DNA from: Eledone cirrhosa
Lineage: Eukaryota
DNA length: 64,000 nucleotides
Reading direction: 5' to 3'
Assembly (NCBI GenBank): GCA_964016885.1
Contig: OZ024760.1
Coordinates: 20,522,001-20,586,000, forward strand
Shown here: positions 26,050 through 64,000 of the stretch, one piece after another
Layout of the letters: every line of letters begins with the position of its first letter
Position numbering within the stretch: position 1 is the stretch's first letter
Position numbers and translations under genes: made by a program
The notes under the pieces: model-generated
Told to the model about the DNA's origin: nothing
Seen by the model: only the letters and a program-made list of their open reading frames with translations
Database searches by the model: none

Positions 26050-27790
26050 TCACCACCGTTTTACGTCCGTTCTTCCACGCTAGCATGGGTTAGACGGGTT
26101 GTCCTGTTGTGGGCAGTGCCAGGCGGCTGACCTTGTCTTGCTCATACGGGAACTGATTCTGGCTTTATTTTTACAGCTGGATGACCTTCCTAACACCAAC
26201 CTCATTTACAGTGAGTGCTGAGTGTTTTTTTTTTCCATGGGCCTACATGTCCACTTTACAGTGTGGGCTGGGTGCTTTTTTGCCGTGGCACCTCCACGAC
26301 CACTTTGCAGTTGGAGTGGGTGGGGGAATATTGTCTATATGCTTCAGCTTCGGCCTGTTCCTGTGGGAGGGTCGAGTCTTCTGTATTACTGTGTGACGCC
26401 AGAGGTCACGGTCGTGTGTCATTGCCCTTGAGAGGTGCAATTGGGTAAGGTCGGCCTTTATCACTTCATCCCAGGTCTTCTTGGGTCTCCCCACTCCGTG
26501 GCTTCCATCGACTTCTAGTGCTCTGCACCTTTTTATGCAGCTGTCATCCTTCATATGCATCACATGTCCATACCAACGCAATCTCCTCTCCTGCACACAG
26601 CATTTGATTCCTCTTATGCTCAGTCTTTCTCTCAATTCGTTTATACTTTGCTGTTTGCGTATATTACTATTACACATCCATCGGAGCATGCAAGTTTCGT
26701 TTCTTTCTAATCTGCACAAGTCTTCTATAGTCAGCGCCCAGGTTTCACTTCCATGTAACATTGGTGTTCGTATACATGCATCATACAGTCTGCCTTTCAT
26801 TTTGAGGGAAAAGCCTTTTGCAGCTAGCAGTGGCAGTAGCTCCCTGAACTTCTTCCATCCTGTTCTTACCCTGGCTATTGTACTTTCTGAACACCCACCT
26901 CCGCTGATAATTCGGTCACCTAGGTAGCAGAAGCTGTCTCCTGTTTCTACAGAGCCCTCCCAGAGTTTGGTGGTGCTTGATTCCTGCTTGTTGTCCCAGT
27001 GCAACTGCTACATATGAAGCCTACATTCTTAGTTAAACTTCCTGAGATCCCACTACATCTCTTGTGTACCCATTGTTTGCATTTGGGGCAGAGGATGGTG
27101 TTCCTACCTACATACTGAGCAAGGCCATTTCCCTGAGGGGATCTGGGTTCTGTTTTCTCATCTACTTACAAGAACCTTAGTTTTTGTCAGGTTGACTTTG
27201 AGACCCTTTCTTTCTAGTCCCTGCTTCCATGTTTGGAATTTCTTTTCTAGTTCCACCATGGATTCAGCTATAAGTGCGAGATCATCTGCATATAGTAGTT
27301 CCCATGGGCATCCGGTCTTAAACTCCTCCATTATTGCCTGCAAAACTATAATGAATAGGAGAGGGCTAAGAACAGGGCCCTGGTGGACACCGACCTGTAT
27401 GCTAAATTCCTCGCAATAGTCATTGCTAACTCTAACTTTGCTGACTGCTCCTCTATACATGGCTTGTACAGCTTTCACAAGCAATTCATCTACTCCTAAT
27501 TTTCTAAGAGCCCACCAGATTATAGCACGGAGGACTCTGTCGAAGGCTTTTTCCAGATCGACTAATGCCAAGTAGAGCGGCTTACTTTTACCTAGGTACT
27601 TTTCCTGTAACTGCCTCACAAGGAAGAGGGCATCAGTGGTGCCTTTCCCTGGTACAAACCCAAATTGCATCTCATCTAGTTTCACCCGGTCCCTAATCAA
27701 CTGTGCTATAACTCTTTCCATTACTTTCATGATCTGGTCCATCAGCTTTATACCTCTATAGTTTCCTTTATCTAGTGCATCACCTTTGTA
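26050..27790 (-). mobile_element. 5'-truncated RTE-clade LINE (reverse transcriptase, frameshifted)
   Basis: ORF 27158..27742 (QFGFVPGKGTTDA, VDLEKAFDRV, GVHQG, LLYADD) and ORF 26243..27004 (FCYLG, RRLRWYGHV, GRPKKTW); (GAT)n tail; short 3' copy at ~18545-18920. Confidence 0.92.
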
Positions 27791-28231
27791 TATAGTTCCA
27801 CATCAGCTAGTAATCAGTCTAAGGTGAAAGAAATTGTTCTCAGAACTGGTGAACTAACTGTTGTGGAACTACTTCTACCAAACTCGTCCCATGGACCGAG
27901 TGCTCTACTACTACGGATATAACCCACCAGTGTTCTATATATATATGTATGTATGTATACACAAAGACTGTGCATTCTGATAAATATTGCCTGTACATAT
28001 AATCAAAGTGTGTATAAATTTGGGTGGGGGGCATCCTCTATATATATATATGGGCGGGCTGCTGAAAAGTCTATAGGCCGACTATGAAGGTGTGATGCCT
28101 GTGAAATCTTGCATGCATTAATTCCAATTCATGTCAGTAACCAACATAAACTATAGGGTTTCTCTTATGCAAACTATAAATTTATCAAACCGTAAATTCC
28201 CCAGTTTGTATGATTGTTCATCATCATCATC

Positions 28232-41802: not shown

Positions 41803-42452
41803 TTATTTATAAACACAGGAATAATATTCATCTTCAAGTTCGTAAAGTTCAGTCGCCATGTCATCTCGTAACGTTAATAACTTCGTGTCCAGTTCACTCT
41901 GTTTCTGTTTGTAGAGTTTTGTGTTCTGACCAATTACTTCATTAACTGACGGGAAGTCGTTTAAGATGAGGAACTGTTTCAGATCTGATACCAGCTTCAT
42001 TAGTGACTCTCCAGCACGGACCTGTAGCCATTGGAAGTAACAGAAGAAAAGAAATATGAGATGAGGAGGAGCAGGTCAAATAATTAGATATGTGTGTGTG
42101 TGTGTGTCTAATATTATAGTTAACCCTTTAGCATTTAAACCGGCCATATCTAGCCAGAATTCTCTCACCTCTTTCTGTTCAAACCTGCCATAACAAGCCA
42201 CTCATACTGATGTTAAGGTATTGTTCTCAAAATCTCAGATTCGATATTATGTGAGATATTTATGTAAGGTAAAGCCTTTACCACGAAAAGACTATAGTAA
42301 ATGTAGAGTAATGTAAATGCTAAAGGGTTAAATATATAGACGTGTGGTAAATAAATATATATATATGGGTGTGTATCTAGGACTACATCATGGTTAAATA
42401 TATAGATGTCTGTAAATCAATGTGTATGTGTGTCTACGAGTACCTTATGGTA

Positions 42453-46800: not shown

Positions 46801-47705
46801 AAACTTACTCCAGAAAATTAAATTTAGACCTGCACAAGCAGGGGTTTCCAATAATATCTGAACCTACTCCACAAAGTTAGATTTAGAACTACACAAATCT
46901 TTAACCCTTTAGCATTTACATTACTCTATATTTACTATTGTATTTTTGTGGTAAAGGTTTTACTTCACATAATATTGAAGCTACGAGACTTTGATTTTAT
47001 TTATTTTCAGAACAATATCTTATCAGTATGAGTGACCAGTTAGGGCCGGTTTGAACAGAAAGAGGTGAGAGAATTCTGGTCGGATACAGCCGGTTTAAAT
47101 ACTAAAAGGTTAAAGTATTTCAACCAACATCTACCATGTAAGGATATGTAGTATTTGGTATAAAATGTTAACTTACTCTAAAAAATTAGATTTAGGTCTG
47201 CACAAGCAGGGGTTAAATGCTATTTATCTAACTTACATCACAAAGTTAAGTTTAGAACTATACAAATTTTTAAGAGTTAAAGCAGGTACCATGACCCAGT
47301 GTTTGATATCCTCTGAGTCTGAGAAGTATCTGTAATGTAATGGCTATTTTTTGAAACATTTTATGAGTGTTTTAAGTCTTTTAACCAAAATCTACCATGT
47401 AAGAGTATCTAGTATTTGACATAAAATGTAAAATTTATGGTAGAAAATGATGACTTATAATAACTAGAGAAACAGGAGTGGACTTCACGTTAATTTGACA
47501 ACATTTGACACACAACACCAGACAAACATTAAACAATGAGAGAATGGAAGAATTTTAAACACACAATTCTACAAACCCGTGCTAGTTTGATAATCTCTCG
47601 AAAGTTATCAACCATTGATTTCACATCATCTTTCAGTCGTTTATTGTAGGATCTCAGTAGAGCTTCTTTGCTTTGTGACAAAACTCTTTGAGGGTGTGTA
47701 GACAT
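41803..47705 (-). CDS. MED22: Mediator subunit 22 (SURF5), 142 aa
   Basis: Exons 47577-47705, 43187-43267, 41803-42021 (429 nt): [25 protein letters not shown]...[33 protein letters not shown]. Probable non-coding exon 1 ends at a gtaagt donor near 49408. Confidence 0.96.
42124..42327. mobile_element. piggyBac-type MITE (TTAA TSD, CCCTTTAGCATTTA TIR)
   Basis: ttaa-ccctttagcattta...taaatgctaaaggg-ttaa; family members near 15142, 34328, 41099, 43317, 46902 and 58752. Confidence 0.8.
42690..42900 (+). mobile_element. RTE LINE 3' fragment, second subfamily
   Basis: [22 protein letters not shown]...[21 protein letters not shown] followed by tgatga tail. Confidence 0.8.
44780..45672 (+). mobile_element. 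CR1/L2-clade LINE 3' fragment
   Basis: [30 protein letters not shown]; frameshifts; (TTA)n tail. Confidence 0.82.
45673..45712 (+). pseudogene. tRNA-Glu(TTC) fragment
   Basis: tagtggttaggattcctggctttcatccaggcggcctggg matches the D and anticodon arms; acceptor and T arms missing. Confidence 0.6.
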
Positions 47706-48367
47706 AACTGTCTGCTTGGTGATTATGGTAATCTGAGAGAAGAAAACCAAATGGGGAAAAATTAATAAACAATGAGTTAAATATTACAATTATTATTTTT
47801 ACTGTTAATCTCATATTTATAGTTGTGAGCAAGACATCACCAGACATATCATCACTTGATATCAATACGAGAAGCAATAATTAAACTTGAGTGGGTGGTT
47901 GGTCCACTCCTTCTCGAGCCTGCACTTAAAAATGTTGACCAATTCAAGGAAACTCCGAGTACTCTAGAAGGTATATGTCGGCTGGGATATGAAATATATA
48001 TATGAGTCCCGGGTTCAATTGGAGGTAATCGCAGTTAGTAAGGTACTCAATACATTAGTAAAATGTAAAAATCAGGTTTAATATAGAAATTGCTTCTACA
48101 TCACTAGAACTGTTTCATTCAAGAAATCACCAGGAAAGAGTTCTAGTCCTGTCCTGTAGAAGCCATCTCTATATTAAACTTGATATATAAAGGAACGATC
48201 GACTTTCGTCAAATCGGATCGAGGAAACAATGTTTCCATTGGTCTTTCCAATTGCTAATACTATCTATCAGTCGCAACTCCAAGTAAAAGGAGCAACGTG
48301 AAATAAAGTGTCTTGCTCAAGGACACAACACATCGCCCAGTCCGGGAATCGAACTCACAACCTCACT

Positions 48368-49519: not shown

Positions 49520-49927
49520 ACATTTCCGGCGGAAAAGAAGTTCTCGTTAGTTTCGATGTAATATTAAAAAGAGTTGATAAATATCAGAAATAAAAGTTTA
49601 ACCAAAACGATAATTTTTTTCAGTAAGAAATAAATATTATTAATTTCTTAAATCTAGAAATAGTTTGATTGTAATATTATTTATAAAAATATAATTAATT
49701 AAAAAAGAAAGTCCTGTTTGCTTTTAAAATTATATATTTGATATTCTAGAAATATTTATTTTTGAAACATATGTTTATTGATATTAAATTTTACCATAAA
49801 ATAACAAAATATTGTGATTATATGTATAAATATATTTTATACGTAACAGTGGCTTCAGAACAAGATGGTAGTGTAGCTCCACTCATTTTGGCCACCTATC
49901 GGCCTTTTTATCTTAGGTATCATCATG
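49520..49927. promoter_or_regulatory. Divergent MED22/RPL7A promoter with 5'TOP/TCT start (cctttttatctt, ~49903)
   Basis: pyrimidine tract just upstream of the RPL7A ATG; about 400 bp separates the two divergent first exons. Confidence 0.65.
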
Positions 49928-50352
49928 GTGAGTACTCGTGTCATTTTATCCATTTTTCAATCTTCGATCATCTGCATTTATTTGCACTACAAACCGTTCA
50001 TACAATATATATGTTACATCTTGTAAAAGTGTAGAATATATATTAAAAGAGATTTTGTAAAAATACTCGGCATATGAGTGTATTTAATCGTTGCAAATAT
50101 ATGTGGTAAGCTATGCCTTCTTTTTCTCCCATCCATTTAACGATCATGAATTTTCTCGTGTCACTTCATTTATTAACGACAATCGGAATTGAAATATATA
50201 GTTTAAATGTCTTAAAAAGAAAATATTTATTTAAGAAAGAATCCTATTATATTAGGTTAATATTCTTTACCGTGTTCGTAGAATTAATATAGAAATAGAT
50301 GCAACATATATATTACACACGTGTATCGTCTCCACTTCTGTTCTCACATGTA

Positions 50353-50398
<46 letters not shown>

Positions 50399-50611
50399 AT
50401 ATTTATACACTGGCTGTGAAAGATTTATTTTATATTTCTATCCACATGGTTCTGCAAAAAATATTAAATCGATCCCAGTTGATCCCCAGAAAAGTAGCAA
50501 ACTTTTATATATCTCGGCAATCTTTAAACCGGGAATATGGACGATCGTAACTAAATAGTGAAGTGATTGAGCTAAAAAAATATCCTAAATCCGAGATTAA
50601 TATATTTGATG

Positions 50612-50655
<44 letters not shown>

Positions 50656-51271
50656 GGGTCCAGACTCTTTATTATAGTATAACCGTACTCTACTATCGTA
50701 AGAATCGAGTACTCGGTTAAGTAATGGTCTAACTAGTTTGAAATTGAATCTATCCTGATATATATTTATATATATATTATAAGCATTTGATGTTATTCCA
50801 AATTGAAGGATAAGTGTTTCAAACTTTGTTTTATCATGAGTTAAAGGTCTATAGATTTTTCCATGGATTTTACTAAATTCTGTGGATGAATTTATATCCT
50901 GATTCTCTTTTGAGATGAGTTTGAGTTATTTTTCCTAAATCTTTCGTTAACTACTTTTCCCATCTTGACGTTATAGTCGCATAAATGTTATAGAATGCCG
51001 TTAGCTTCTTGCTAAAACAATCTCTATACGTCTCATTTATATATATATATATATATATATTCCGGGTTTGATGCTAAATTATATTGGAAAAATAACGATT
51101 TAAAATATATAACTGGTTAGGGTTAGTAACATGATAAAAGCTGACCCAAATGTCTTAACTTTACATCGTTTTTATGTTCCTTTTGTTTTCTATATTGGCA
51201 TGGGTTGGACATGTTACCAAGGCATTACTTAGTAGGAGCTGATATCATATTTTTAATAAGGACCTTAAAAA

Positions 51272-51309
<38 letters not shown>

Positions 51310-52529
51310 GTGTGTGTATGTAGTTGGCTTAATATATTTGGGAGTTCCTTTACATGCTTCGATTTATACGTTAGATGACGGCATTGGAAAATGTCCGTGG
51401 AGTAGCAACAATATGAGATGCTCTGGTCTTTGACCTATAGATCTGTTTGATGAGGAAGGGGTCTTGGATTGAAAATATCGATATTTGATACATTGGAAAT
51501 GTATAATTACTAAAATATTGCTATTATATCAATGTTGGCGTGTAGTGTTGTATGTACAGGAGGAGGCCTGTGGTGAGATGGAAGAATCTTTGGATGTGTC
51601 TCTGAGAAATATGTATATATTGCTGATGTGTCGGTTATTTAATGGGACATTTATTTATTATGTTTGGCTAATATTTCGGTATAAGTTCGAGATTTCCGTA
51701 TGTTTCCACCGTATTCTTCCTCTTTAGGGACATACGTTAATGGGATTTTTGCTATGTATTAAACATTTACTACTTTAAATTTACTTATCTATTTTCTTGG
51801 ATAATAATGTTCTTTCATAATATATAATTCTGATATACATATAAATGAGTAAGGTTCGCTTTCTTTTAATTTACGATTATTGTCGAATATTTTTACGGAG
51901 ATTACCGGAAGTGTCTGATCTTAAATTAGTTACTGAGATAAAATGGCTGAAGTATATCTTTTAATGTCTAGTGAGTGGTGGTGTTTCTTGAGTAGTAGTA
52001 TGGTTAGATAGGAGAATACTTCCGAAGCCTTTCATTTATTCCCTTCGGGTCGATCAGATAAAAATGTTAAAATATTTTGTTTCTGTTGCTGAATGTCGGA
52101 ACATTGAAAAATCTTTCTCTGTTAACACGAACTACAACACTTGTGTGGGCTTTCAGATTATATTCCAACTGTGAACTGCCTTTAAGACTTTAGAGTTGTG
52201 TGTATAAATGAACACTTAGAGCCGCCCTAGGAACAATCCAGTAGATAAATGGTGCCATATTAAAAGTGCTTAATTTGCACGTGAAATCAATAAAAAATGC
52301 ATAACATTGTTTCCCTTGTGTATAATGATTTAACAATTTTTGAAGTACAGAATTTTCTTAATGGCCTTTTTCCCCCCCTTTGATTTCCTTCCTATCACAT
52401 GTCTCCAGCCTTTGAAATCGAAGAAGGGAAAAAAGAAGCTTCCACCGGTTCCTACCGTTGCTAGGAAGATTGAACCAAAGAAAGTGGTCAACCCTCTTTT
52501 TGAGAAGAGACCAAAGAACTTTGGTATAG
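49925..52529 (+). CDS. RPL7A: 60S ribosomal protein L7a (eL8/SURF3), exons 1-2; later exons not seen in window
   Basis: ATG-only exon 1 (ATG 49925-49927 then gtgag). Exon 2 52409-52529 reads [41 protein letters not shown], with a gtaagt donor. Confidence 0.93.
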
Positions 52530-53857
52530 GTAAGTCAATCAATTTAGTTTTCGTCTGGTAATTGGTTTGTTTTACTACCATTCTTCCATGCTAGCTTGGG
52601 TTAGACGAGTTATCCTGCTCATACAGATTTAATTTTGCGTAGATTTTTACAGCTGGATGCCCTTCCTAACGCCAACCTTATTTACGGTGAGTACTGGGAG
52701 CTTTTTGTCCTGACACCTACACGACCACTTTACAGTGTGGAGTGGACCAATGATCGGACGGGTTGGTTAGCTAAACCTAGTCCCCTTTCTGGTGTTTTTG
52801 ATATTAGCGTGAATTAATGGCAAGGGAAACTTCTTTTGCGGGGTTTTAAAGGAATATTGGAATTCTCTAAGACTAACCATTTCATTACCATATTTCTAAT
52901 GAAATATACTGCCTGTGGTTCTCAAATAATTTTTTAATTTTAACTAAAGAATTTGTAGGAGTTTTAGATAAATATAAAAACTTAACCCTTGGTGAATTGC
53001 AACAATTTGGACAGGTTTAATAATACAACTAACTTTCCCATTATTAAGCTGGTGTTTGGAGCATAATTTAAACATCCTTAAAATTACGATGGAGTTGGTT
53101 TAGATATATTTTAAAACAGTCCTGTCATAGAAGTAGGGGCAGTTTTAGGGGATTTTTTTAATATGAAAGTGGTTACTGACATCTTTTGGGGGCTGCTTTC
53201 TTCACGAAAACAGGATTTTGACAAGGGCCAGGAACCCTGATTTATTCAATGTTCAGGCAATGATGGAATTTAGAATATTTGCTACATGAATGTTAATGAT
53301 TACAATTTCTTTGCTGAGCCTGACAAAAGTTTCCAGAGTTAGAAGGGATTTACAGTTTTTTTTCCCTCAGGATAAAATGTAAGTTGTGATTTATAGGATA
53401 AAATATAAAACATTTAGATAAAAAATAATTGTATATATGAACTTGGTTCTAAAATCTGTTATGTTATTTTATTAGAAACTTCCTTCACTTAGATTTCTGT
53501 GTTATAATGGAGTTAGTTTTTGTGAGATATATTTATTGAAAGAAGGGGGGCTACATCCAGTCTAGATGGGATTACATGTGTCCAAGGATTTCAAAAATAT
53601 GTAGAACTGATAGGGAGATCAGGGGAAGACAACCTAAATATTTCACCGATGGTTTTATTGACATTAAGCAACAGAATATGTGACTCCCTCTTAGAGGGAG
53701 CACCAGTCTATTGTCTGGTTGTTCCCTCCATGATACTGGGTGGGTTGGAGCAATGTGAAATAAAGTGATTTTCCTTAAGGACAACATGCTATCTGGTCTG
53801 GGAGTTAAAATTGTGTCTTTCTCTGATCTTGTTCCCAACACCTTTAACCCCTTATTG

Positions 53858-53926
53858 GACGGTGATGACACCAGTTATTAAATATGAGGTTTCTCTATGA
53901 AATATAATCCCTTGGCTGTCTGAGTC
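53858..53926 (+). ncRNA. SNORD53: box C/D snoRNA, SNORD53/snR64-like, copy 1
   Basis: gac stem, C box GTGATGA, guide TCCCTTGGCTGT then D box CTGA, gtc stem. Guide is complementary to conserved 28S ACAGCCAAGGGA; the D+5 rule points to the C equivalent to human Cm3848. Confidence 0.85.
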
Positions 53927-54045
53927 ACTCTGCATTTATGTAAATATCTGTTAAAATTGGGCTGTTTGTATCATTGGGAGTGGAGGGGGGGGTAATTTCA
54001 GGTGGGTTGTGGCTGCTTTATCTGGGAATTGTCATTCTCTGATTT

Positions 54046-54101
54046 GACAGTGATGACACCAATTATTAAATATGAGGTTTTTTTCTGAAATATAAACCCT
54101 T
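54046..54101 (+). pseudogene. 3'-truncated SNORD53-like copy
   Basis: C box and 5' half intact; guide and D box lost. Confidence 0.65.
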
Positions 54102-54567
54102 ATTTTGTTGCTATTTCAAATGAAATACACTTCTATCTCAAATTTCTGCAACTCCAGACATTATTATTTTGTGTGACTTGTCATGTGGCGGTATATGTTC
54201 TATATTTGTATAGAGGTGTAACTTCTATACAAATAGCACTGAGGCATTTAGTGGTGTATATAACCATACTTTATTTCTTAGGTACATAGCCAGTGTGTTT
54301 ATAGACCTGGAAGGTTTGTGTATATAACCATGCTATATTTCTAAGCTACACAGTCAGTTTCAATGAATTTTGAGGAATCTAATAATAGAGCTTAACTAAT
54401 TAATTAACATTATTTGATGGTTCAAGGGCGGTGGATTGGCAGTATCGGTAGAGTCGGACGCCATACTTTGCAGCAGAGTTACGGCCCTTTATAATTTGAG
54501 TTCAAATCCCGCTGAGGTTAACTTTGCCTTTCATCCGTATGGGGTCAATAATTTTAACCCCCTATTT

Positions 54568-54659
54568 GACAGTGATGACACCAGTTATTAAATATGAGGT
54601 TTCCCAATTATTAAATATGGGGTTTCTCTCTGAAATATAATCCCTTGGCTGTCTGAGTC
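54568..54659 (+). ncRNA. SNORD53: SNORD53-like snoRNA with 23-nt internal duplication
   Basis: C box, guide, D box and stem intact. Confidence 0.75.
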
Positions 54660-55100
54660 ACTTTAACTTTTTTTTTTTTTTTTGTTATTTCATGTTTGGA
54701 ACATTATTTGACAAAAGGTTCTAATCTAGGTTTTTAATGTAAATATATGGTAAAATGGGGCAATTTCAGCTGGGTCGGTGTTTAGAGGGATAAAACAACA
54801 TTTGAAGTGTTCTAAATTGTGAGTTATATTCAAAATTCTTGATTGTTTCCTAAATTATGTTGAAATATTAACCAGTAAAATTATAATGGAAGGGATAAAT
54901 TCCAAATTGGAGTTTTTATTGAAGTAGGTGGAAGGGCTATACGCTGTATGAGTTTTTTTAACTATATAATTAAGAGGATCAGGAGAAGACAGCACATATA
55001 TTACAGACTCCCAAGCTAATATGATAATGAAGGGTTAAAATAATGTTTTTATTAGCATTAGATGACTTGCCTTATATTTCAGGTGGGTTGTGGCTGCTTT

Positions 55101-55157
55101 GACAGTGATGACACCAATTATTAAATATAAGGTTTCTTTCTGAAATATAAACCCTTA
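55101..55157 (+). pseudogene. 3'-truncated SNORD53-like copy
   Basis: same truncation as the 54046 copy. Confidence 0.65.
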
Positions 55158-55490
55158 TTTTGTTGCTATTTCAAATGAAATACACTTCTATCTCAAATTT
55201 CTGCAACTCCAGACATTATTTTGTGTGACTTGTCATGTGGCGGTATATGTTCTATATTTGTATAGAGGTGTAACTTCTATACAAATAGCACTGAGGCATT
55301 TAGTGGTGTATATAACCATACTATATTTCTTAGGTACATAGCCAGTGTGTTTATAGACCTGGAAGGTTTGTGTGTATAACCATGCTATATTTCTAAGCTA
55401 CACAGTCAGTTTCAATGAATTTTGGGAATTTTGAGGAATCTAATAATAGAGCTTAACTAATTAATTAACATTATTTGATGGTTCAAATTA

Positions 55491-55684
55491 GGGCGGTGGA
55501 TTGGCAGTATCGGTAGAGGGTCGGACGCCATGCTTTGACGCATAGAGTTACGGTCCTTGCCATTCTGAGTTCAAATCCCGCCGAGGTTAACTTTGCCTTT
55601 CATCCTTTCGGGGTCGATAAAATAAAGTACCAGTAATGCACTGGGTAATTGCTGGCCTTGTGCCAAATGTAGAAACAATTATTT
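55491..55684 (+). mobile_element. tRNA-derived Meta/MESC-type SINE
   Basis: A box tggcagtatcgg, B box gagttcaaatcc, core gcctttcatcctttcggggtcgataaa, flanking direct repeat attatttgatggttcaa; more than 10 further copies (e.g. 1603, 3830, 6068, 35697, 39560, 41530, 54425, 55695). Confidence 0.8.
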
Positions 55685-55836
55685 GATGGTTCAAGGGCGG
55701 TGGATTGGCAGTATCGGTAGAGTCGGACGCCATGCTTTGCAGCAGAGTTACGACCCTTTATAATCTGAGTTCAAATCCCGCTGAGGTTAACTTTGCCTTT
55801 CATCCGTATGGGGTCAATAGTTTTAACCCCCTATTT

Positions 55837-55903
55837 GACAGTGATGACACCAGTTATTAAGTATGAGGTTTCTCTGAAATATAATCCCTTGGCTGTCTGA
55901 GTT
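55837..55903 (+). ncRNA. SNORD53: SNORD53-like snoRNA
   Basis: GTGATGA...TCCCTTGGCTGT-CTGA. Confidence 0.8.
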
Positions 55904-55928
55904 ACTTTAACTGCTTATATTATGTAAA

Positions 55929-56464
55929 CTAGCAGAAAAACCACCCTGGGGTGGTTTCCTACTAGCATGTGTAGTGTGTATATTGATCAAATAAAATCGT
56001 AATTGACAATATACACAGAAATTGAGCGAAGTCTATGTTACAGTCTTCTGTAATCAGTAATGTAATCCACGATACATTTAAAAAAAGATATGGATAAACT
56101 GCACTAGGAGAAAATTAGCGACGGAAATATATATGCAATATTTTTATAAGTGTTATATAACTTTCTACTTTTGGCACAAGACCAGCAATTATCACAGTAC
56201 ATTACTGGTACTTTATTTTATCGACCCCGTAAGGATGAAACGCAAAGTTAACCTCGACGGGATTTGAACTCTGACCTTGAAACTTTTAAAGAAGTGAATC
56301 TTTAAATAAGCTATAAAATATATTTAATCAACAGCCACAAAATTTAGCAGATAAATTATGTAATATTCATTAATTATTTATTCAAAGTAATCCAACTTAT
56401 TTTACAAACGGGGTAAAAAAATATATTCTGGACGCAGTCCCGCACTCCTTTATTATGGTTAAGA
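55929..56464 (-). mobile_element. non-autonomous Helitron, same family
   Basis: reverse-complement homolog of 1488-2116; empty paralogous site ttatgtaaa|tatctgttaaaattggg at ~53940. Confidence 0.78.
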
Positions 56465-56575
56465 TATCCGTTAAAATTGGGCTGTTTGTATCATTGGGTG
56501 GATTTCAGGTGGATTGTGGCTTCTTTATCTGGGAATTGTCATTCTCTGATCCTGTCTCCTTTTAACTCCCTATTT

Positions 56576-56667
56576 GACAGTGATGACACCAATTATTAAA
56601 TATGAGGTTTCCCAATTATTAAATATGGGGTTTCTCTCTGAAATATAATCCCTTGGCTGTCTGAGTC
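56576..56667 (+). ncRNA. SNORD53: SNORD53-like snoRNA with internal duplication
   Basis: paralog of the 54568 copy. Confidence 0.75.
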
Positions 56668-57125
56668 ACTTTAACTTTTTTTTTTTTTTTTTATTTCATG
56701 TTTGGAACATTATTTGACAAAAGGTTCTAATCTAGGTTTTTAATGTAAATATATGGTAAAATGGGGCAATTTCAGCTGGGTCGGTGTTTAGAGGGTTAAA
56801 ACATTTGAAGTGTTCTAAATTGTGAGTTATATTCAAAATTCTTGATTGTTTCCTAAATTATGTTGAAATATTAACCAGTAAAATTATAATGGAAGGGATA
56901 AATTCCAAATTGGAGTTTTTATTGAAGTAGGTGGAAATACGCTGTATGAGTTTTTTTAACTATATAATTAAGAGGATCAGGAGAAGACAGCACATATATT
57001 ACTGACTGTCCCAAGCTAATATGATAATGAAGGGTTAAAATAATGTTTTTATTAGCATTAGATGACTTGCCTTTTTGTTTTTGGAAATAGTTAAGAATGC
57101 AGATGTAACTTTGCTGGAAATCTGA

Positions 57126-57275
<150 letters not shown>

Positions 57276-57449
57276 TATAGATGTGACGAGGTCATGGAGA
57301 GTAGGATTTGACGAGGTCATTGGAGATATGATTTCTTAAATGAAACAGTTTTACAGATAATATAATATATATAAACAAGAAAAATAGGGTTTTTTTTTTG
57401 TGGACTTCACTTTTGGAAACACTGGTAATTAAAAAGCATATGATTTCTT

Positions 57450-57517
57450 AGCAATGAGGATGACCTTGCCCTCTCTGATAATGATGAGACATTTTTCATA
57501 CGCATTCTTTCTGAGCT
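57450..57517 (+). ncRNA. box C/D snoRNA, SNORD103/SNORD85-like
   Basis: agc/gct stem, C box ATGAGGA, guide CTTGCCCTCT then D' CTGA, C' ATGATGA, D CTGA. Guide pairs with conserved 18S GGAGGGCAAG (human Gm601 site). Confidence 0.75.
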
Positions 57518-58217
57518 TTGGGAATAAATATGCTTTTGTATTTTGTGTTTGTAGAGTGTATTTATCGTAGTTTCTAGTGTCTGATGATGTTTTGGAAGTT
57601 GGATACAGAAAAAATTGTTTTTTGTAGACTTGGTTGGTAGTTTTAAAGACTGAAATTCTAAGTAGTGTCTTGAGTTAATTACACGTGGTATTGGTCACTT
57701 ATGTGCTATACTATCCCGGTTTTTAGAAAGGATCTACTGTCTTTGCAGTAATTTGAGTTAAATAGTTGAAACTGCAGGTGGTCTGAAATCTGATGTGTGT
57801 ATTTTAATGTTTGTGATCTCTTCTCATCCATTCTATTTCTTTCTTATCACTTCTTCGAGGTAATGTTTTACCCAATGCTGTTTTTACAGCATTTTGCTGT
57901 TTTAACAGCTTCCTATGAATATATATATATGGCAAGAAGTGTCCAGTAAAGTGGTCGTGAAGGTATCACAACAAATCACCCAGTACACACTGTTAATTCG
58001 GTTGGTGTTGGGAAAGGCATCCGGCTGTAGAAACAGCCAAAATCAGTTCTGTATGGGCAAGAGCTGGTTATGTGAGCTGGCTTGTCTCACAATAGGACAA
58101 CTCTTCTAACCCATGCTAGCATGAAGAAATGAATATTAAATGGTGATGTGTGCGTATATATATATATATATATATATTTCACAGGTGTCCCCTGGTTTAA
58201 TATAACCCCCTTTAAAT

Positions 58218-58285
58218 TGACTGTGATGACATGTTAAATATATGAGATTTCTCTCTGAAGTATAATCCCTTGGCTGTCTGAGTCA
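58218..58285 (+). ncRNA. SNORD53: SNORD53-like snoRNA, divergent subtype
   Basis: tgac/gtca stem; boxes and guide conserved while the spacer diverges. Confidence 0.82.
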
Positions 58286-58998
58286 CTTTTGTTATATGAA
58301 AGAACCTACTTGTAATTTGAAATGGTAGTACATTGTTTCCTTGCTTGCCGTAAAAAAACAACTAAAAATAACTAGCTGTAAAACATTTAATCCAACCCAT
58401 GCCAGCCTGGAAAGGGATGACAGTTAAGTCTGGCATGTATTAGTGTTTGTCTTTGCTTTGAATTTGGTATTGCTAGTATGGTGGGACTTAGGTCCCCCAA
58501 CATAGTGGTTTGATTGGCAAACCCCTCTACTTTTGTTTTAAAAGATAACCCTGTTCGAGTGTTGCCATCATGAAAGACATTCAGCTGTAGTATATTTCCT
58601 GGAAAAGTCTACAAGGTGTCCCAGCATGTCCTTGGCCTCTAGGCTGGAACATGTACTAGAGTTACAGTAGGTTTATAACTACAACTAGTGGTTGATAAAA
58701 CAATGACCAGCAGTTCAAATCTCACTGGTATGCCCTGGTTTAATATACACTCTAACCCATTAGCATTTAAACCGGCCATATCTGGCAAGAATTTTCTAAC
58801 CTTTCTGTTCAAACCGGTCGTAACTGGCTGCTCATACTGATGCAAACTTATTTTTCTCAAAATAAATATCAAAATCTCGTAGATTCGAAATTGTCAAATA
58901 AAGCCTTTTCTGTAAAAATATAATAGTAAATGTTAAAGAATTAAACTGATAACATTATCTTTTGTCTTTTGTCCCCTGGTTTAATATAACCCCATTTA

Positions 58999-59075
58999 AA
59001 TTGACTGTGATGACATCACGTTAATGATATGAGATTTCTCTCTGAAGTATACTCCCTTGGCTGTCTGAGTCAGTT
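58999..59075 (+). ncRNA. SNORD53: SNORD53-like snoRNA, divergent subtype
   Basis: aattgac/gtcagtt stem; boxes and guide conserved. Confidence 0.82.
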
Positions 59076-59407
59076 TTGTTATATTTAGAATGAAAGAAGC
59101 CAGCCTATAATTTGAAATGAGCAGGTTTGGTGTAAATATAAAATGTGCAGAAGACTTGCATTCTACTGGTGGTAAATTGAAGTTTCAACTGGTTTCTATG
59201 TTATTGGAAGTGTGCTTGGCTAAGTCACTCTATTAAAATATGAGGTTTGATTCTTTGTAGTAACTGCTGGCAGCTCCCTTTTCCATTTATAAGGGTCAGT
59301 GCCTTATTTAGATGGAACCCATAGCATTTAATACCACTGTCTGGTGTTCTTTGGGAAATTGAGGAATTCGGTGTAAGTTCTACTGAACTATGTGTTTCTA
59401 TGTTGAT

Positions 59408-59536
59408 GGAGGAGTGCTGCACACTTGTACACTCTGGTACATTTGTACGTAAAACTCTTCCTATATTAAACTATGGCAGTTGTAGGACACTGGTCATTTC
59501 TATATGTAACTGGTGATTTAGATATCTGTCACATTC
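59408..59536 (+). ncRNA. H/ACA snoRNA candidate, family A, copy 1
   Basis: hairpin ggaggagt..actcttcc, H box ATATTA, hairpin ggcag..ctgtc, ACA plus 3 nt; 129 nt. Confidence 0.65.
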
Positions 59537-59589
59537 TCTTGGAGAAATGTTCTTGTTTCTTTTAACCATTTCATTGTTCTGGGGTTGAA

Positions 59590-60295
59590 CCAGCTGTGTA
59601 TTGGAGTCCAGGTCAACTTTACCATTCATTCTTCTAGGGTTGGTAAACATAGAATATAGTGCAAGCTGTCTATTGGGTCCAGGTCAACTTTACCATTCAT
59701 TCTTCTAGGGTTGGTAAACATAGAATATAGTGCAAGCTGTCTATTGGGTCCAGGTCAACTTTACCATTCATTCTTCTAGGGTTGGTAAACATAGAATATA
59801 GTGCAAGCTGTCTATTGGGTCCAGGTCAACTTTACCATTCATTCTTCTAGGGTTGGTAAACATAGAATATAGTGCAAGCTGTCTATTGGGTCCAGGTCAA
59901 CTTTACCATTCATTCTTCTAGGGTTGGTAAACATAGAATATAGTGCAAGCTGTCTATTGGGTCCAGGTTAACTTTACCATTCATTCTTCTAGGGTTGGTA
60001 AACATAGAATATAGTGCAAGCTGTCTATTGGGTCTAGGTTAACTTTACCATTCATTCTTCTAGGGTTGGTAAACATAGAATATAGTGCAAGCTGTCTATT
60101 GGGTCCAGGTTAACTTTACCATTCATTCTTCTAGGGTTGGTAAACATAGAATATAGTGCAAGCTGTCTATTGGGTCTAGGTTAACTTTACCATTCATTCT
60201 TCTAGGGTTGGTAAAAAATATAGTACCTGCTGTGTATTGGGGTTCAGGTCAACTTTACTATTCATTCTTCTGTGGTTGGTAAAATAAAGTACCAG
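59590..60295. repeat. 71-bp minisatellite (~10 copies) derived from the Meta-SINE core
   Basis: period 71 (59607 to 59678); unit ggtcaactttaccattcattcttctagggttggtaaa resembles the SINE core. Confidence 0.88.
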
Positions 60296-60504
60296 GTGTG
60301 TACTTAACTATCATCATCATAGTTTAATGTCTATCTTCCATGGGTTAGACGGGATTGATCTACCTGAGGCAAGTTTGGTTGGGTGACCCGTGTCTTGCTC
60401 GTATAGAACTATCTGGCAGGTTTTCTATGGCTGGATGCCCTTCCTAACATCAACCACATTTACAGTGTGGACTGGGTTCTTCTCATTAATTAACAATTTT
60501 GAGA

Positions 60505-60662
60505 GAATGATTTATCACTGATATCAATGCATTATGATTTCTCTTCTGTATGTATATCTTTGTGAGTAATTAAGCAACTTTTCACAGGGTGATATTCCAC
60601 AGATTTCAGTGATATGACTTCTCTCCTGTATGTATACGTTTGTGGTTAGTTAAGGCACTACC
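60505..60662 (-). pseudogene. degenerate C2H2 zinc-finger fragment
   Basis: [18 protein letters not shown] followed by stop and frameshift. Confidence 0.65.
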
Positions 60663-61007
60663 AGTTTAACTGAATTTCATCCCACACCCCACCTCCAAAT
60701 TGCTGGGGTTATTTTATCTAAAACTTGGTGAAACTGTGCAGTGATTGCTATCAACATCATCGTCTATCTTCCTCGCTAGCATGGGTTAGATGGGTTTGTT
60801 CCATTTGAGGCAAGTTTGGTCAGGTGACTGTCTTGCTCGTTATAGGACTGTTTCTGGCTGGTCATAGATACCAATCCCCATGTCTTATAATACCACATTA
60901 CATGAAACTTTGTCTTACAGATACTATATATATAAGCAAAAAATATTTTTTTTTTTTTTTTTTTTTTTTTGTGGACCCCACTGGTAATTGAAAGCATATG
61001 ATTTCTT

Positions 61008-61075
61008 AGCAATGAGGATGACCTTGCCCTCTCTGATAATGATGAGACATTTTTTATACGCATTCTTTCTGAGCT
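61008..61075 (+). ncRNA. SNORD103-like snoRNA, copy 2
   Basis: near-identical to the 57450 copy; a degenerate third copy lies at ~62600-62668. Confidence 0.75.
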
Positions 61076-61758
61076 TTGAAATAAATAAATATGCTTTTGT
61101 AGAGTATATTCTTCATAGTTGATCCTTTCATTATTCCATTTACAAAAACTCTCCACTGTTCGAGATTTGCTCAAAGTTGTTCAATTCAGTCATTTCCCTA
61201 ATTTAGACGGAACTTATAGCATTCAATACCACTGTCTGGTGTTCTTTAAATTTGGAAACAGGCTTCAGTGTAAAGTCTGTGCTGTTTCTAGGTTATTGAA
61301 AGAATGTCTTGTTAATGTGGTTTCTGTGAAACATTGCAGTATTAGAATAAAAATTTCAACTTGTAAATCTACAAGATGGGTGTATTTTGACTGGTTCTTG
61401 TATATTATATAGGAAGACGTTAACTTTTGTTACCATATTTCTGGCAGAGAGAGAGAGAGAGATGAGATTTGATTTGATTCCTTGTAGTGATTAATGGCAA
61501 CAATTTTTCCTAAGTTTGAAAGTTTGAGTTTTGCATGTGTTTGGTTCCTTGTAGTGACAGCTGGCAACTCCCTTTTCCATTTATAAGGGCCAGTGTTTCG
61601 TTTCGTAAGTTTGATGCTTGTTTACTTGTTCAATTCAGTCAGTTCCCTAATTTAGATGGAACTCATAGCGTGCAATATCACTGTCTGGTGTTCTTTAGAC
61701 TTTGTGAAATTGAGGAATTCGGTGTAAGTTCTACTGAACTGTGTGTTTCTATGTTGAT

Positions 61759-61887
61759 GGAGGAGTGCTGCACACTTGTACACTCTGGTACATTTGTACG
61801 TAAAACTCTTCCTATATTAAACTATGACAGTTGTAGGACACTGGTCATTTCTATATGTAACTGGTGATTTAAATATCTGTCACATTC
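61759..61887 (+). ncRNA. H/ACA snoRNA candidate, family A, copy 2
   Basis: as copy 1; gacag/ctgtc substitution keeps pairing. Confidence 0.65.
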
Positions 61888-62263
61888 TTTTTTATAAGAA
61901 ACCTACTTAGAAGGTGAAGATTGGTGTGTAATTTTACACTAGAGTGTGTTACACAGTAAAACTATTTGTAGTTTCAAATATCTAAACAGGTTTGTGGAAT
62001 ATTACAGTATTAGAGTAAAAACTTCATGTTGAACCCTTTTGTTATGATGAAAGACCCTGCCTATTGTTTTCAAATGATTTTGAAAATAATCAAGAATTCA
62101 GATGGATTAAGTAATTACAGACTTTCTCATTAATTTGGTTTTTGAAACGACTTAAAAAAAGGTTCTTTTATAAAATTGTGCTGAAAGGTTTATAGCTGAA
62201 CATTATAAATACTTAGCTATAAATGTATAGGTTTACTTTGTTTTAAAACCCATTTGTTTCCAT

Positions 62264-62344
62264 ATAAATTGACTGTGATGCAATACTTTAGGATTAGGTA
62301 ATATGAACATTGATGATTTATAACTTTTGACTGAGTCAATTTAT
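62264..62344 (+). ncRNA. orphan box C/D snoRNA candidate, copy 1
   Basis: 10-bp terminal stem ataaattgac/gtcaatttat, variant C box GTGATGC, D' ATGA, C' TTGATGA, D CTGA. Confidence 0.6.
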
Positions 62345-62367
62345 TAAAACATAATAGGTTTTATTTC

Positions 62368-62496
62368 ATATCTATGAGATGGATGTATTTTGACGGGTTC
62401 TTGTATATTATTATAAGATATTAACTCCTTTGTTACCATATTTCTGGCTGAGAGGATGTGAGATTTGATTCCTTATAGTGACTAATGGTAACAACT
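62368..62496 (+). ncRNA. possible H/ACA-like RNA, family B
   Basis: 3' hairpin taccat..atggta then ACA, ANANNA upstream; relatives at ~61367-61505 and ~63688-63815; 5' hairpin is weak. Confidence 0.35.
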
Positions 62497-63276
62497 ATTC
62501 TTATCTAAGTTTGAACTTTGCATGTGATGTTTACATTTTCAAATCTGTTTGATACAGTCAGCTCCCTAATTTAGATGGTAAAATGTTGTCAGATCCCTTA
62601 ACTGAAGGAGGTTAACTTTGCTTTCTCTGACTGATGAAATTTGTTTATATATACATTCTTTCTGAGCTTTGAAATAGATATCCTTTTGTTTGTAGACTAT
62701 ATTCTTTATAGTTGATCCTTTTGTTTGTAGACTATATTCTCCATGGTTGATCCTTTTCAATTAAGGTTTTAAATTAGGGAATTTGGGCTGGGCCTTTCTA
62801 ATTACCCAAGAAATCTCTTGAGATATGCAAGGGCAGCTAAATCTGCTTATGTGTAAGCTGTACATTTCATTTCAAGAAAGATAGGAAATTATTGCATTCA
62901 ATACCACTCTCTGGGAGTCACACTCTTTGAAATTGAAGAAGTCAGTGTTAAGTGTAAGATCTGTTACCATAGAAACTGACTGATGGCAATATTTTAGGGT
63001 TATTTGAGAATTTTTAAAATGTAATGCTTGACTGAGTCACTAGTAAAATACGATGTTTGGTTCCTTGTAGTGACAGCTGGCAGCTCCCTTTTCCATTTAT
63101 AAGGGCCAGTGTTTCGTTTCGTAAGTTTGATGCTTGTTTACTTGTTCAATTCAGTCAGTTCCCTAATTTAGATGGGACTCATAGCGTGCAATATCACTGT
63201 CTGGTGTTCTTTAGACTTTGGGAAATTGAGGAATTCGGTGTAAGTTCTACTGAACTGTGTGTGTTTCTATGTTGAT

Positions 63277-63405
63277 GGAGGAGTGCTGCACACTTGTACA
63301 CTCTGGTACATTTGTACGTAAAACTCTTCCTATATTAAACTATGGCAGTTGTAGGACACTGGTCATTTCTATATGTAACTGGTGATTTAAATATCTGTCA
63401 CATTC
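63277..63405 (+). ncRNA. H/ACA snoRNA candidate, family A, copy 3
   Basis: as copy 1. Confidence 0.65.
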
Positions 63406-63584
63406 TTTTTTATAAGAAACCTACTTAGACGGTGAAGATTGGTGTGTAATTTTACACACGATTAAATATAACAATTTTCTCACTAATTTGGTTTTGGGGA
63501 CATAACTTAAAACAGGTTCTTTGATAAAATTGTTCTAAACGATTTACTTTGTTTTAGGGAGAAATAAAACCCATCTGTTTCCAT

Positions 63585-63664
63585 ATAAATTGACTGTGAT
63601 GCAATACTTTAGGATTAGGTAATATGAACATTGATGATTTTACTTTTTGACTGAGTCAATTTAT
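63585..63664 (+). ncRNA. orphan box C/D snoRNA candidate, copy 2
   Basis: paralog of 62264; degenerate relative at ~62975-63040. Confidence 0.6.
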
Positions 63665-64000
63665 TGAAACATACTGGGTTTTATTTCATATCTATGAGAT
63701 GGATGTATTTTGACTGGTTCTTGTATATTATTAGAAGATATTAACTCCTTTGTTACCATATTTCTGGCTGAGAGGATGTGAGATTTGATTCCTTATAGTG
63801 ACTAATGGCAACTAAGTTTAGCTTTGCCTGTGATGTTTACCTTTTCAAACCTGTTTGATCAGTCAGCTCCCTAATTTAGATGGTAAAATGTTGTCAGAGG
63901 TCAATGGTTAGAGTACTGCTGCTGTGTGGGATTTGATGTTTGAGTCCCTGTAGTAACTGCTAGTAACTCTTCTGTCTCTAGGTCTTTACCTGATTTTATA

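What the first reader, a model, noticed from the sequence alone, without database searches (positions are those of the whole stretch)
53850..64000. Amplified multi-family snoRNA cluster in a giant RPL7A intron
Seen: after RPL7A exon 2 there are more than 11 kb with no recognisable RPL7A exon 3 (expected GQDIQPKRD-like). The stretch holds about 17-20 same-strand snoRNA-like units from 4-5 families, spread by local block duplications. Known: vertebrate snoRNAs are normally one per intron, and vertebrate RPL7A hosts SNORD24/SNORD36, which I do not see here. Inference: this is either a polycistronic intronic snoRNA cluster (unusual in animals) or an RPL7A promoter co-opted to drive a non-coding snoRNA host transcript.
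Basis: partly seen in the sequence, partly recalled or inferred. Interest (0 to 1): 0.85.

Follow-up and report, generated by a model that had tools for sequence, protein, structure and literature searches.

The report
Six snoRNA families in one intron
An octopus gene for ribosomal protein L7a is intact and holds 15 intact-looking small nucleolar RNA genes of six families inside one predicted 12-kb intron; they are likely cut apart after splicing, whereas animals mostly keep one such RNA per intron.

Summary
RPL7A exon 3 lies 501 nt beyond the window and the exons give an unbroken 266-codon frame, so the promoter was not co-opted. Intron 4 holds six more, including SNORD36. The guides pair with this genome's own rRNA. 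Four families searched genome-wide occur only here. Some copies are more conserved than their flanks, and the H/ACA unit is kept in a second species. Read depth argues against an assembly duplication. I found no excess of splice signals that would give each unit its own intron, apart from one candidate 8-nt stop-making microexon, but the splice model was crude and no RNA data were available. Best reading: a mixed C/D + H/ACA intronic cluster grown by local duplication, processed by cuts in the spacers (inferred). Intronic clusters are a known category; the scale and mix in an animal protein-coding intron are unusual.

The parts
49925..49927 (+). Probable RPL7A exon 1 start codon (ATG followed by a GTGAGT donor, pyrimidine-rich leader); a second ATG-GT candidate lies at 49865
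   Evidence: (donor 9.2 bits); the assignment is inferred
52409..52529 (+). RPL7A exon 2 (40 codons + 1 nt)
52530..64000 (+). RPL7A intron 2; continues 500 nt past the window (11,971 nt in all); exon 3 is L002:501-650
53254..53321 (+). SNORD24/snoR124-like C/D snoRNA; D' guide 13 bp to own 28S C2105 (numbering from the Rfam match start)
53371..53378 (+). Candidate 8-nt microexon (acceptor 13.1 bits, the best in intron 2; donor 7.5); would put a stop after exon 2; unverified
   Evidence: 10 of 100 shuffled introns also hold an acceptor of 13 bits or more
53857..53927 (+). SNORD53/92-like C/D copy B1; D guide 12 bp to own 28S C3802
54046..54101 (+). Truncated SNORD53-like copy (most of the D guide and the D box lost)
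54567..54660 (+). SNORD53/92-like copy B2 with a 23-nt internal duplication; boxes and guide intact
55100..55156 (+). Truncated SNORD53-like copy
55836..55904 (+). SNORD53/92-like copy B3
56575..56668 (+). SNORD53/92-like copy B4 (same internal duplication as B2)
57448..57518 (+). SNORD103/85-like C/D copy C1; D' guide 9 bp to own 18S G752; C box has one mismatch
58218..58285 (+). SNORD53/92-like copy B5
59002..59072 (+). SNORD53/92-like copy B6
59408..59536 (+). Unnamed H/ACA snoRNA copy E1 (hairpin-H-hairpin-ACA; 5' pocket 4+6 bp around own 28S U4426); no Rfam hit
   Evidence: fold z -2.8; kept in a second species
61006..61076 (+). SNORD103/85-like copy C2
61759..61887 (+). H/ACA copy E2
62269..62339 (+). 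Unnamed C/D family copy D1; 10-bp terminal stem; 10-nt complement to own 18S 111-120; target nucleotide uncertain
62605..62671 (+). Decayed SNORD103-like copy
   Evidence: 24 bits
62979..63039 (+). Decayed copy of the unnamed C/D family
   Evidence: 11 bits, E 0.006
63277..63405 (+). H/ACA copy E3
63590..63659 (+). Unnamed C/D family copy D2 (the 15th unit, SNORA50-like, lies past the window at L002:272-403)

Best explanation
[quoted passage not shown] Shown: the gene structure as an open frame, the units, their strand, their boxes, their pairing to own rRNA and the duplicated blocks. Inferred: transcription from the RPL7A promoter; removal of 52530-64500 as one intron; snoRNP proteins protect each unit; endonucleolytic breaks between units (enzyme unknown, no shared signal found) give entry points for 5' and 3' exonucleases. 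The ancestral SNORD24/SNORD36 cargo is kept. The two guides of SNORD24 sit on separate RNAs (D' guide in intron 2, D guide in five copies in intron 4).
For: Open 801-nt frame with AG/GT junctions; exons 2 and 3 are adjacent in a solved octopus L7a chain. C/D hits 10 on + and 0 on - in intron 2, against about 0.4 per 10 kb outside the gene. Guides pair 12-13 bp with own 28S at the +5 register for the SNORD53-like and SNORD24-like units. Whole-genome searches return the H/ACA family (3 places), the SNORD53-like family (6), the SNORD103-like family (2) and the unnamed C/D family (2) only in this intron; a C-box + guide pattern gives 6 hits here and 1 elsewhere that lacks a CTGA D box. So if these rRNA sites are modified, this intron is the likely source. 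Units differ less than their homologous flanks: 7/338 vs 52/656 substitutions over 4 pairs, p 6.5e-5. A run of a second species has a 131-nt contig on the H/ACA unit with 9 differences, while exon 2 has 18 in 138. Acceptor scores 35-130 nt behind 21 units equal background (median 4.7 vs 4.5 bits; 7 bits or more in 4 of 21 vs 21% of random positions), and the 184-nt and 381-nt spacers between H/ACA and C/D units have best exon scores of 1.1 and 3.0. AG/GT recursive sites occur in 3 of 14 spacers, at about background density once one tandem repeat is counted once.
Against: No RNA was seen, so expression and processing are unshown. The splice matrix is generic and recalled, and one true acceptor of this gene scores only 2.1 bits, so weak real sites would be missed. 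Only 3 of 8 paralogue pairs show significant unit-over-flank conservation (the H/ACA and SNORD103-like pairs); the three SNORD53-like pairs, the unnamed C/D pair and the youngest H/ACA pair do not, and gene conversion could give the same signal. No intron-2 unit reaches an Rfam gathering score. Flanks form no shared duplex that could serve as an RNase III signal (1 of 15 units in the lowest 5%). In human cells two snoRNAs in one intron give a joined sno-lncRNA, not two RNAs (PMC5054931, PMC11028025; passages). Genome searches score only the best candidates, so diverged guides for the same sites elsewhere are not excluded.
Confidence: 0.55

Rival explanations
1. The 12-kb intron is subdivided in a minority of transcripts by cryptic non-coding exons, alternative acceptors or stepwise splicing, so that each snoRNA leaves in its own lariat and the spliced product is destroyed by nonsense-mediated decay.
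For: An 8-nt candidate microexon 49 nt behind the SNORD24-like unit has the strongest acceptor in the intron and would add a stop. Human multi-snoRNA hosts use alternative splicing with NMD (PMC4233243, passages). Efficient expression favours a position about 70 nt from a 3' splice site (PMC5054931, passage). A true acceptor in this gene scores 2.1 bits.
Against: No excess of acceptors behind units, and two short spacers have no plausible exon. Recursive sites are not enriched. An acceptor of 13 bits arises in 10 of 100 shuffled introns.
Confidence: 0.27
2. Only one or a few copies are live; the inner units are mostly pseudogenes, or the intron is trimmed only from its ends to a long RNA capped by the first and last snoRNA (a sno-lncRNA).
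For: Four copies are visibly decayed and two carry a 23-nt insertion. Five of 8 paralogue pairs show no excess conservation. Up to about 65% of annotated human C/D genes are unexpressed (PMC12309372, passage). Two snoRNAs in one intron give sno-lncRNAs in human.
Against: The inner families have no other detectable copy in the genome. The H/ACA and SNORD103-like copies, which lie in mid-intron, are the best conserved, and the H/ACA unit is kept in a second species.
Confidence: 0.14
3. The extra copies are an assembly duplication of a few real snoRNAs.
For: Two block pairs are 97-98% identical (54552-55073 / 56560-57073; 61538-61939 / 63054-63457).
Against: Most blocks differ by 7-25% with their own indels. 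In run X1, contigs on duplicated blocks have depth 20.4-27.4 (4 pieces), against 9.6-10.8 on single-copy pieces (4 pieces); X1 may be the assembly's own sample and X2 is noisier. Six different families would remain even if all copies collapsed.
Confidence: 0.03
4. The RPL7A promoter was co-opted for a non-coding snoRNA host and the protein gene is broken.
For: None after looking past the window edge.
Against: Exons 3-7 follow within 7.8 kb of the window end and the frame is open.
Confidence: 0.01

Closest known systems
Vertebrate RPL7A (SURF3) host of SNORD24/U24 and SNORD36/U36
   Same: Same host gene, same two families, a SNORD24-like unit in intron 2 as in human (PMC3412847, passage). SNORD24 or SNORD36 hits in 8 of 11 other RPL7A loci scanned from metagenome contigs.
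   Different: In those loci no intron had two hits at or above a gathering score, and the exon 2-3 gap was 59-438 nt in the 17 of 80 loci where it exceeded 40 nt. Here it is 11,971 nt with 15 units, five families are added, and the two U24 guides lie on separate RNAs.
Intronic snoRNA clusters (several snoRNAs in one intron); Drosophila intronic H/ACA clusters (Huang et al. 2004, J Mol Biol 341:669)
   Same: Several sense-strand snoRNA genes in one intron of a protein-coding gene, grown by local duplication. Category defined in PMC11028025 (figure legend passage).
   Different: Here mostly C/D, mixed with H/ACA, six families. PMC5932544 says H/ACA beside C/D is 'not common in Drosophila' (passage). 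That fly C/D snoRNAs are one per intron is my recall of Huang 2005, which was not held; of Huang 2004 I saw only the title.
Plant and yeast polycistronic snoRNA clusters processed by RNase III-type cuts (Rnt1)
   Same: Different families in a row on one precursor, which needs cuts between units (PMC10557570, passages).
   Different: Spacers are 184-1,469 nt with SINE and tandem-repeat DNA; no flanking duplex signal was found; the precursor is an intron of a ribosomal protein gene in an animal.
Human sno-lncRNAs (two snoRNAs in one intron)
   Same: More than one snoRNA inside one intron.
   Different: Those are pairs that stay joined (PMC5054931); here 15 units, whose inner members look conserved and have no detectable copy elsewhere.

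Membership tests
Box C/D guide snoRNA | C box, D box and terminal stem, 55-100 nt | tested here: met
   11 C/D units in intron 2; the SNORD103-like C box has one mismatch; 2 of the 11 (B1, C2) were missed by the strict scan and added from profiles
Box C/D guide snoRNA | 10-21 nt guide to rRNA next to the D or D' box | tested here: met
   13 bp (SNORD24-like), 12 bp (SNORD53-like x6); 9 bp for SNORD103-like; 10 bp with unclear register for the unnamed family
Box C/D guide snoRNA | Accumulates as a discrete RNA bound to fibrillarin and directs methylation | not testable with these tools
   no RNA holder listed
Rfam SNORD53_SNORD92, SNORD103, SNORD24, SNORA50 | Score at or above the gathering threshold | tested here: not met
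   29-36 vs 46; 32-34 vs 45; 33 vs 41; 38.6 vs 90. The guides align to the models, so I use '-like' names
Rfam SNORD36 | Score at or above the gathering threshold | tested here: met
   36.2 vs 30, L002:5126-5196, intron 4; D' guide 12 bp to own 28S A3657
Box H/ACA snoRNA | Hairpin-H box-hairpin-ACA with a bipartite pocket 14-16 nt from a box | tested here: met
   E1-E3: pocket 4+6 bp at 28S U4426, 16 nt from H. SNORA50-like: 6+5 bp around 18S U35 by inspection; the automated scan instead returned 18S U1190. Two candidates also passed on the - strand, so the scan alone is not specific
Intronic snoRNA cluster | Two or more snoRNA genes between two consecutive exons of the host | tested here: met
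   for the coding exons:
Intronic snoRNA cluster | No non-coding exon or intermediate splice between the units | tested here: inconclusive
   sequence scans show no excess but use a weak model; one candidate microexon; no RNA data
Polycistronic snoRNA precursor | Endonucleolytic release of single snoRNAs | not testable with these tools
   no flanking duplex signal; needs RNA end mapping
Non-coding snoRNA host gene (UHG/GAS5 type) | Spliced exons lack a functional reading frame | tested here: not met
   open 266-codon L7a frame

The most novel reading that the evidence does not exclude
Octopuses have dropped the one-snoRNA-per-intron habit genome-wide, for C/D as well as H/ACA RNAs, and use a splicing-independent cutting pathway to release guides from tandem-grown intronic arrays. 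Other loci in this genome hint at it: RPL7A intron 4 (6 units, 2 families), a U14 locus with 8 C/D units in 3.5 kb, four of them within about 900 nt with no exon pair scoring 5.5 or more, six C/D-like units in 2.1 kb at the SNORD15 locus, and two SNORD18 copies in what appears to be one RPL4 intron. Against it: the other two SNORD18 copies in RPL4 sit alone in their introns, and the hosts of the U14 and SNORD15 loci look non-coding, where short exons are easy to miss.
Probability: 0.3. Interest if true: 0.72.

Novelty: new variant of a known kind. Interest (0 to 1): 0.5.

Why it matters
Animal snoRNAs mostly come one per intron because trimming works from the intron's two ends; a second unit tends to yield a joined long RNA. 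A conserved ribosomal protein gene whose single intron carries 15 units of six families, several with no other detectable copy in the genome, must solve this somehow: by an uncharacterised cutting activity or by hidden splicing. Either answer can be had from one RNA experiment, with copy-specific bases as markers. It also gives predicted rRNA modification sites for the octopus ribosome, which now has a cryo-EM model (9EHO). None of the intron-2 units reaches an Rfam gathering score, so standard annotation would likely miss them. The individual RNAs are ordinary guides; the interest is in the arrangement.

Tried and rejected
RNA evidence: no RNA holder listed. Run X4, which I hoped was RNA, showed no exon 2 piece among the listed ones and no listed splice joint; only 32 of about 482,000 pieces and 15 of 4,885 joints were shown, so this says nothing on expression. 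Reads were laid only on 49700-59560, so the 3' part of the intron was not tested for depth or for the second species. Rfam at gathering level: no snoRNA in the window. Rfam on window 1-52400: the only snoRNA-family hits were two weak sno_ZL1 matches among microsatellite-type miRNA hits. Repeated spacer motifs with AG/GT or AG/GC ends (61488, 62479, 63071, 63799 and kin) looked like 9-nt microexons but score 4.5-5.1 bits, as background. Other repeated spacer blocks (61350-61505, 62355-62500, 63675-63820, 61530-61710, 54690-54935) do not fold better than shuffles (z +1.2 to -1.4); a single H/ACA-like candidate at 53540-53666 has z -0.3 and was not counted. A 10-mer rRNA complement alone is weak (7 of 16 background C/D hits have one). 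RNase III-type flanking stems: not found. No cephalopod RPL7A locus among 80 metagenome loci (best identity 82%). No earlier notes on this genome. snRNA targets were not searched. The SNORD24-like and SNORA50-like units were not searched genome-wide.
Full report
Setting. The window is G000:C21:20522001-20586000 in a 3.0-Gb genome. The genome's own 28S carries the 8-nt helix 88 motif that PMC13321053 describes as specific to incirrate octopuses (passages read). The L7a exons match chain G of PDB 9EHO, that paper's octopus ribosome, almost exactly. Coordinates above 64000 continue the window into L002 (L002:1 = 64001).

The host gene is intact. Exon 2 is 52409-52529. Exon 3, with the expected GQDIQPKRD start, is at 64501-64650, and exons follow at 64891, 69464, 70379 and 71672. 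With an ATG they give 801 nt with no internal stop and AG/GT ends at every junction. The likely exon 1 ATG is at 49925; this is inferred from a 9.2-bit donor. The introns are 2,481, 11,971, 240, 4,352, 784 and 1,223 nt.

Inventory of intron 2. Rfam gives no snoRNA at gathering level but many sense-strand C/D hits below it. A strict scan for C box, D box and terminal stem gave 10 hits on + and 0 on - in intron 2, 6 and 0 in intron 4, 0 and 0 in intron 1, and 16 in 383.6 kb of strand outside the gene. Profiles built from the units, an H/ACA scan and Rfam on L002 give, in order: SNORD24-like 53254; SNORD53/92-like 53857, 54567, 55836, 56575, 58218, 59002; SNORD103-like 57448, 61006; an H/ACA 59408, 61759, 63277; an unnamed C/D 62269, 63590; SNORA50-like 64272. 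That is 15 intact-looking units of six families. Four decayed copies lie at 54046, 55100, 62605 and 62979. Intron 4 has five copies of a second SNORD24-like RNA and one SNORD36 above its gathering score.

Predicted targets, in this genome's own rRNA (loci; numbering from the Rfam match start). SNORD24-like D' guide: 13 bp, 28S C2105. Intron-4 copies, D guide: 9-14 bp in 4 of 5, 28S C2091. Human U24 guides two cytosines 14 nt apart, C2338 and C2352 (PMC3412847, passage), so its two guides appear to be split over two RNAs here. SNORD53-like: 12 bp, 28S C3802. SNORD36: 12 bp, 28S A3657. SNORD103-like: 9 bp, 18S G752. Unnamed C/D: 10 bp to 18S 111-120, without a clean +5 register. H/ACA: pocket of 4+6 bp at 28S U4426. 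SNORA50-like: 6+5 bp at 18S U35 by inspection, while the scan returned U1190. The last three are weak taken alone.

Origin and reality of the copies. Self-comparison shows overlapping direct duplications of up to 530 nt at 75-98% identity, interrupted by repeats that recur in the flanking 200 kb. In run X1, contigs on duplicated blocks have depth 20.4-27.4 and single-copy contigs 9.6-10.8 (4 pieces each among the 8 listed). That fits real copies, though X1 may be the assembly's own sample and only 49700-59560 was laid.

Signs of function. Whole-genome searches found four families only in this intron; these searches give lower bounds. A box + guide pattern found 6 hits here, 1 elsewhere without a CTGA box, and 0 for the reversed control. 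Within duplicated blocks, units carry fewer substitutions than flanks in 3 of 8 pairs (E1/E3 1/129 vs 19/197; E1/E2 2/129 vs 10/117; C1/C2 1/71 vs 17/124). The other five pairs, including all SNORD53-like pairs, show no difference. Pooled over one pair per family: 7/338 vs 52/656, p 6.5e-5. A second species (run X5) has a 131-nt contig that covers exactly the H/ACA unit with 9 differences, while its exon 2 piece has 18 in 138. A contig that stops at both ends of the unit, with a second contig overlapping it, suggests more than one copy there too (inference).

One intron or many? I scored splice sites with a generic, recalled matrix. True internal acceptors score 2.1-9.9 and donors 6.7-11.6, so the test is weak. 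Behind 21 units the best acceptor at +35 to +130 nt has median 4.7 bits, against 4.5 for random positions. Best exon scores per spacer in intron 2 range from 1.1 to 8.3, with a median of 6.0 in shuffled 800-nt windows. The 184-nt spacer between H/ACA E3 and C/D D2 scores 1.1, and the 381-nt spacer E2-D1 scores 3.0. AG/GT sites for recursive splicing occur in 3 of 14 spacers. One exception stands out: an acceptor of 13.1 bits at 53371 followed 8 nt later by a GTAAGT donor, 49 nt behind the SNORD24-like unit; inclusion would add a stop. Ten of 100 shuffled introns reach such a score, so it is a lead only. If real, it gives the ancestral SNORD24 its own intron in an NMD isoform and leaves the other 14 units together. 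No RNA run was available.

Mechanism. Most likely the RPL7A promoter drives everything, the intron is removed whole, and breaks in the spacers let exonucleases trim each protected unit. The cutting step is inferred from yeast and Xenopus precedents (PMC10557570, passages); I found no shared flanking duplex. I put this at 0.55, hidden splicing with NMD at 0.27, mostly dead copies or a sno-lncRNA at 0.14.

Comparison. Animals follow 'predominantly' one snoRNA per intron, and intronic clusters are a recognised minority class (PMC11028025, passages; PMC1821038, passages). Of 80 RPL7A loci from metagenome contigs, 17 had an exon 2-3 gap above 40 nt, all 59-438 nt. Of 11 scanned, 8 had SNORD24 or SNORD36 hits, and none had two hits at or above gathering in one intron. 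These contigs are of unstated organisms and none is a cephalopod. Other loci in this genome also show tight C/D arrays: 8 units in 3.5 kb at a U14 locus, 6 in 2.1 kb at SNORD15, and 2 SNORD18 in one apparent RPL4 intron while 2 others are single.

Literature. Seven searches listed no paper on cephalopod snoRNA gene organisation, judged from titles and abstract starts; 'snoRNA' + 'octopus' gave 58 papers, of which 20 were listed. The library lacks most subscription journals. Huang 2004 was seen as a title only and Huang 2005 was not held; the size and make-up of the fly clusters, which bear on novelty, are therefore from recall. I read passages only of PMC3511168, PMC1821038, PMC11028025, PMC12309372, PMC11014333, PMC5054931, PMC13321053, PMC5932544, PMC10557570, PMC12205218, PMC6984369, PMC3675471, PMC3412847 and PMC4233243, and no supplements; the supplement of PMC11028025 may give cluster counts per species.

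Verdict. A real mixed intronic snoRNA cluster in an intact RPL7A gene; a new variant of a known arrangement; processing untested. Interest 0.5.

Noticed in passing
window 41806-42075 (-) and 47532-47783 (-): MED22 (SURF5) exons lie head-to-head with RPL7A (SURF3) (Pfam PF06179). The same neighbour as in the vertebrate Surfeit locus, by recall.
   Followed up: partly
L002:1112-5463 (RPL7A intron 4): Five copies of a SNORD24-like RNA with the other U24 guide, three of them in a tandem block of about 610 nt, plus SNORD36, in one 4,352-nt intron.
   Followed up: partly
G000:C5:33003688-33007162 (-), loci L134-L135: Six U14-like copies, an snR56-like unit and another C/D unit in 3.5 kb with no recognisable coding exon; single U14 copies also at C4:98683081 and C3:305036424.
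   Followed up: partly
G000:C18:42089696-42091767 (+), loci L138-L139: SNORD15-like unit followed by five more C/D-like units within 2.1 kb; host not identified.
   Followed up: no
G000:C4:327461841-327469073 (+), loci L136-L137: RPL4 with four SNORD18 copies: two single in their introns, two apparently sharing one.
   Followed up: partly
window 59606-60244: Tandem array of a 71-nt unit, about nine copies, nearly identical, right behind the first H/ACA copy.
   Followed up: no
window 57126-57272 (+) and 60572-60675 (-): C2H2 zinc-finger fragments inside intron 2 in opposite orientations, 78% alike.
   Followed up: no
window 54165-54375 and 55215-55424: A duplicated 210-nt block with a long hairpin (fold z -3.25) that matches no snoRNA type I tested.
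   Followed up: partly
window 57820-57949: Strongest local fold in intron 2 (z -4.6, 25 shuffles), single copy, not explained.
   Followed up: no
window 27161-27802 (-): Reverse transcriptase fragment (RVT_1), likely a LINE relic.
   Followed up: no
L025 (own 18S): The 18S rRNA match is 2,876 nt, about 1 kb longer than the Rfam model.
   Followed up: no
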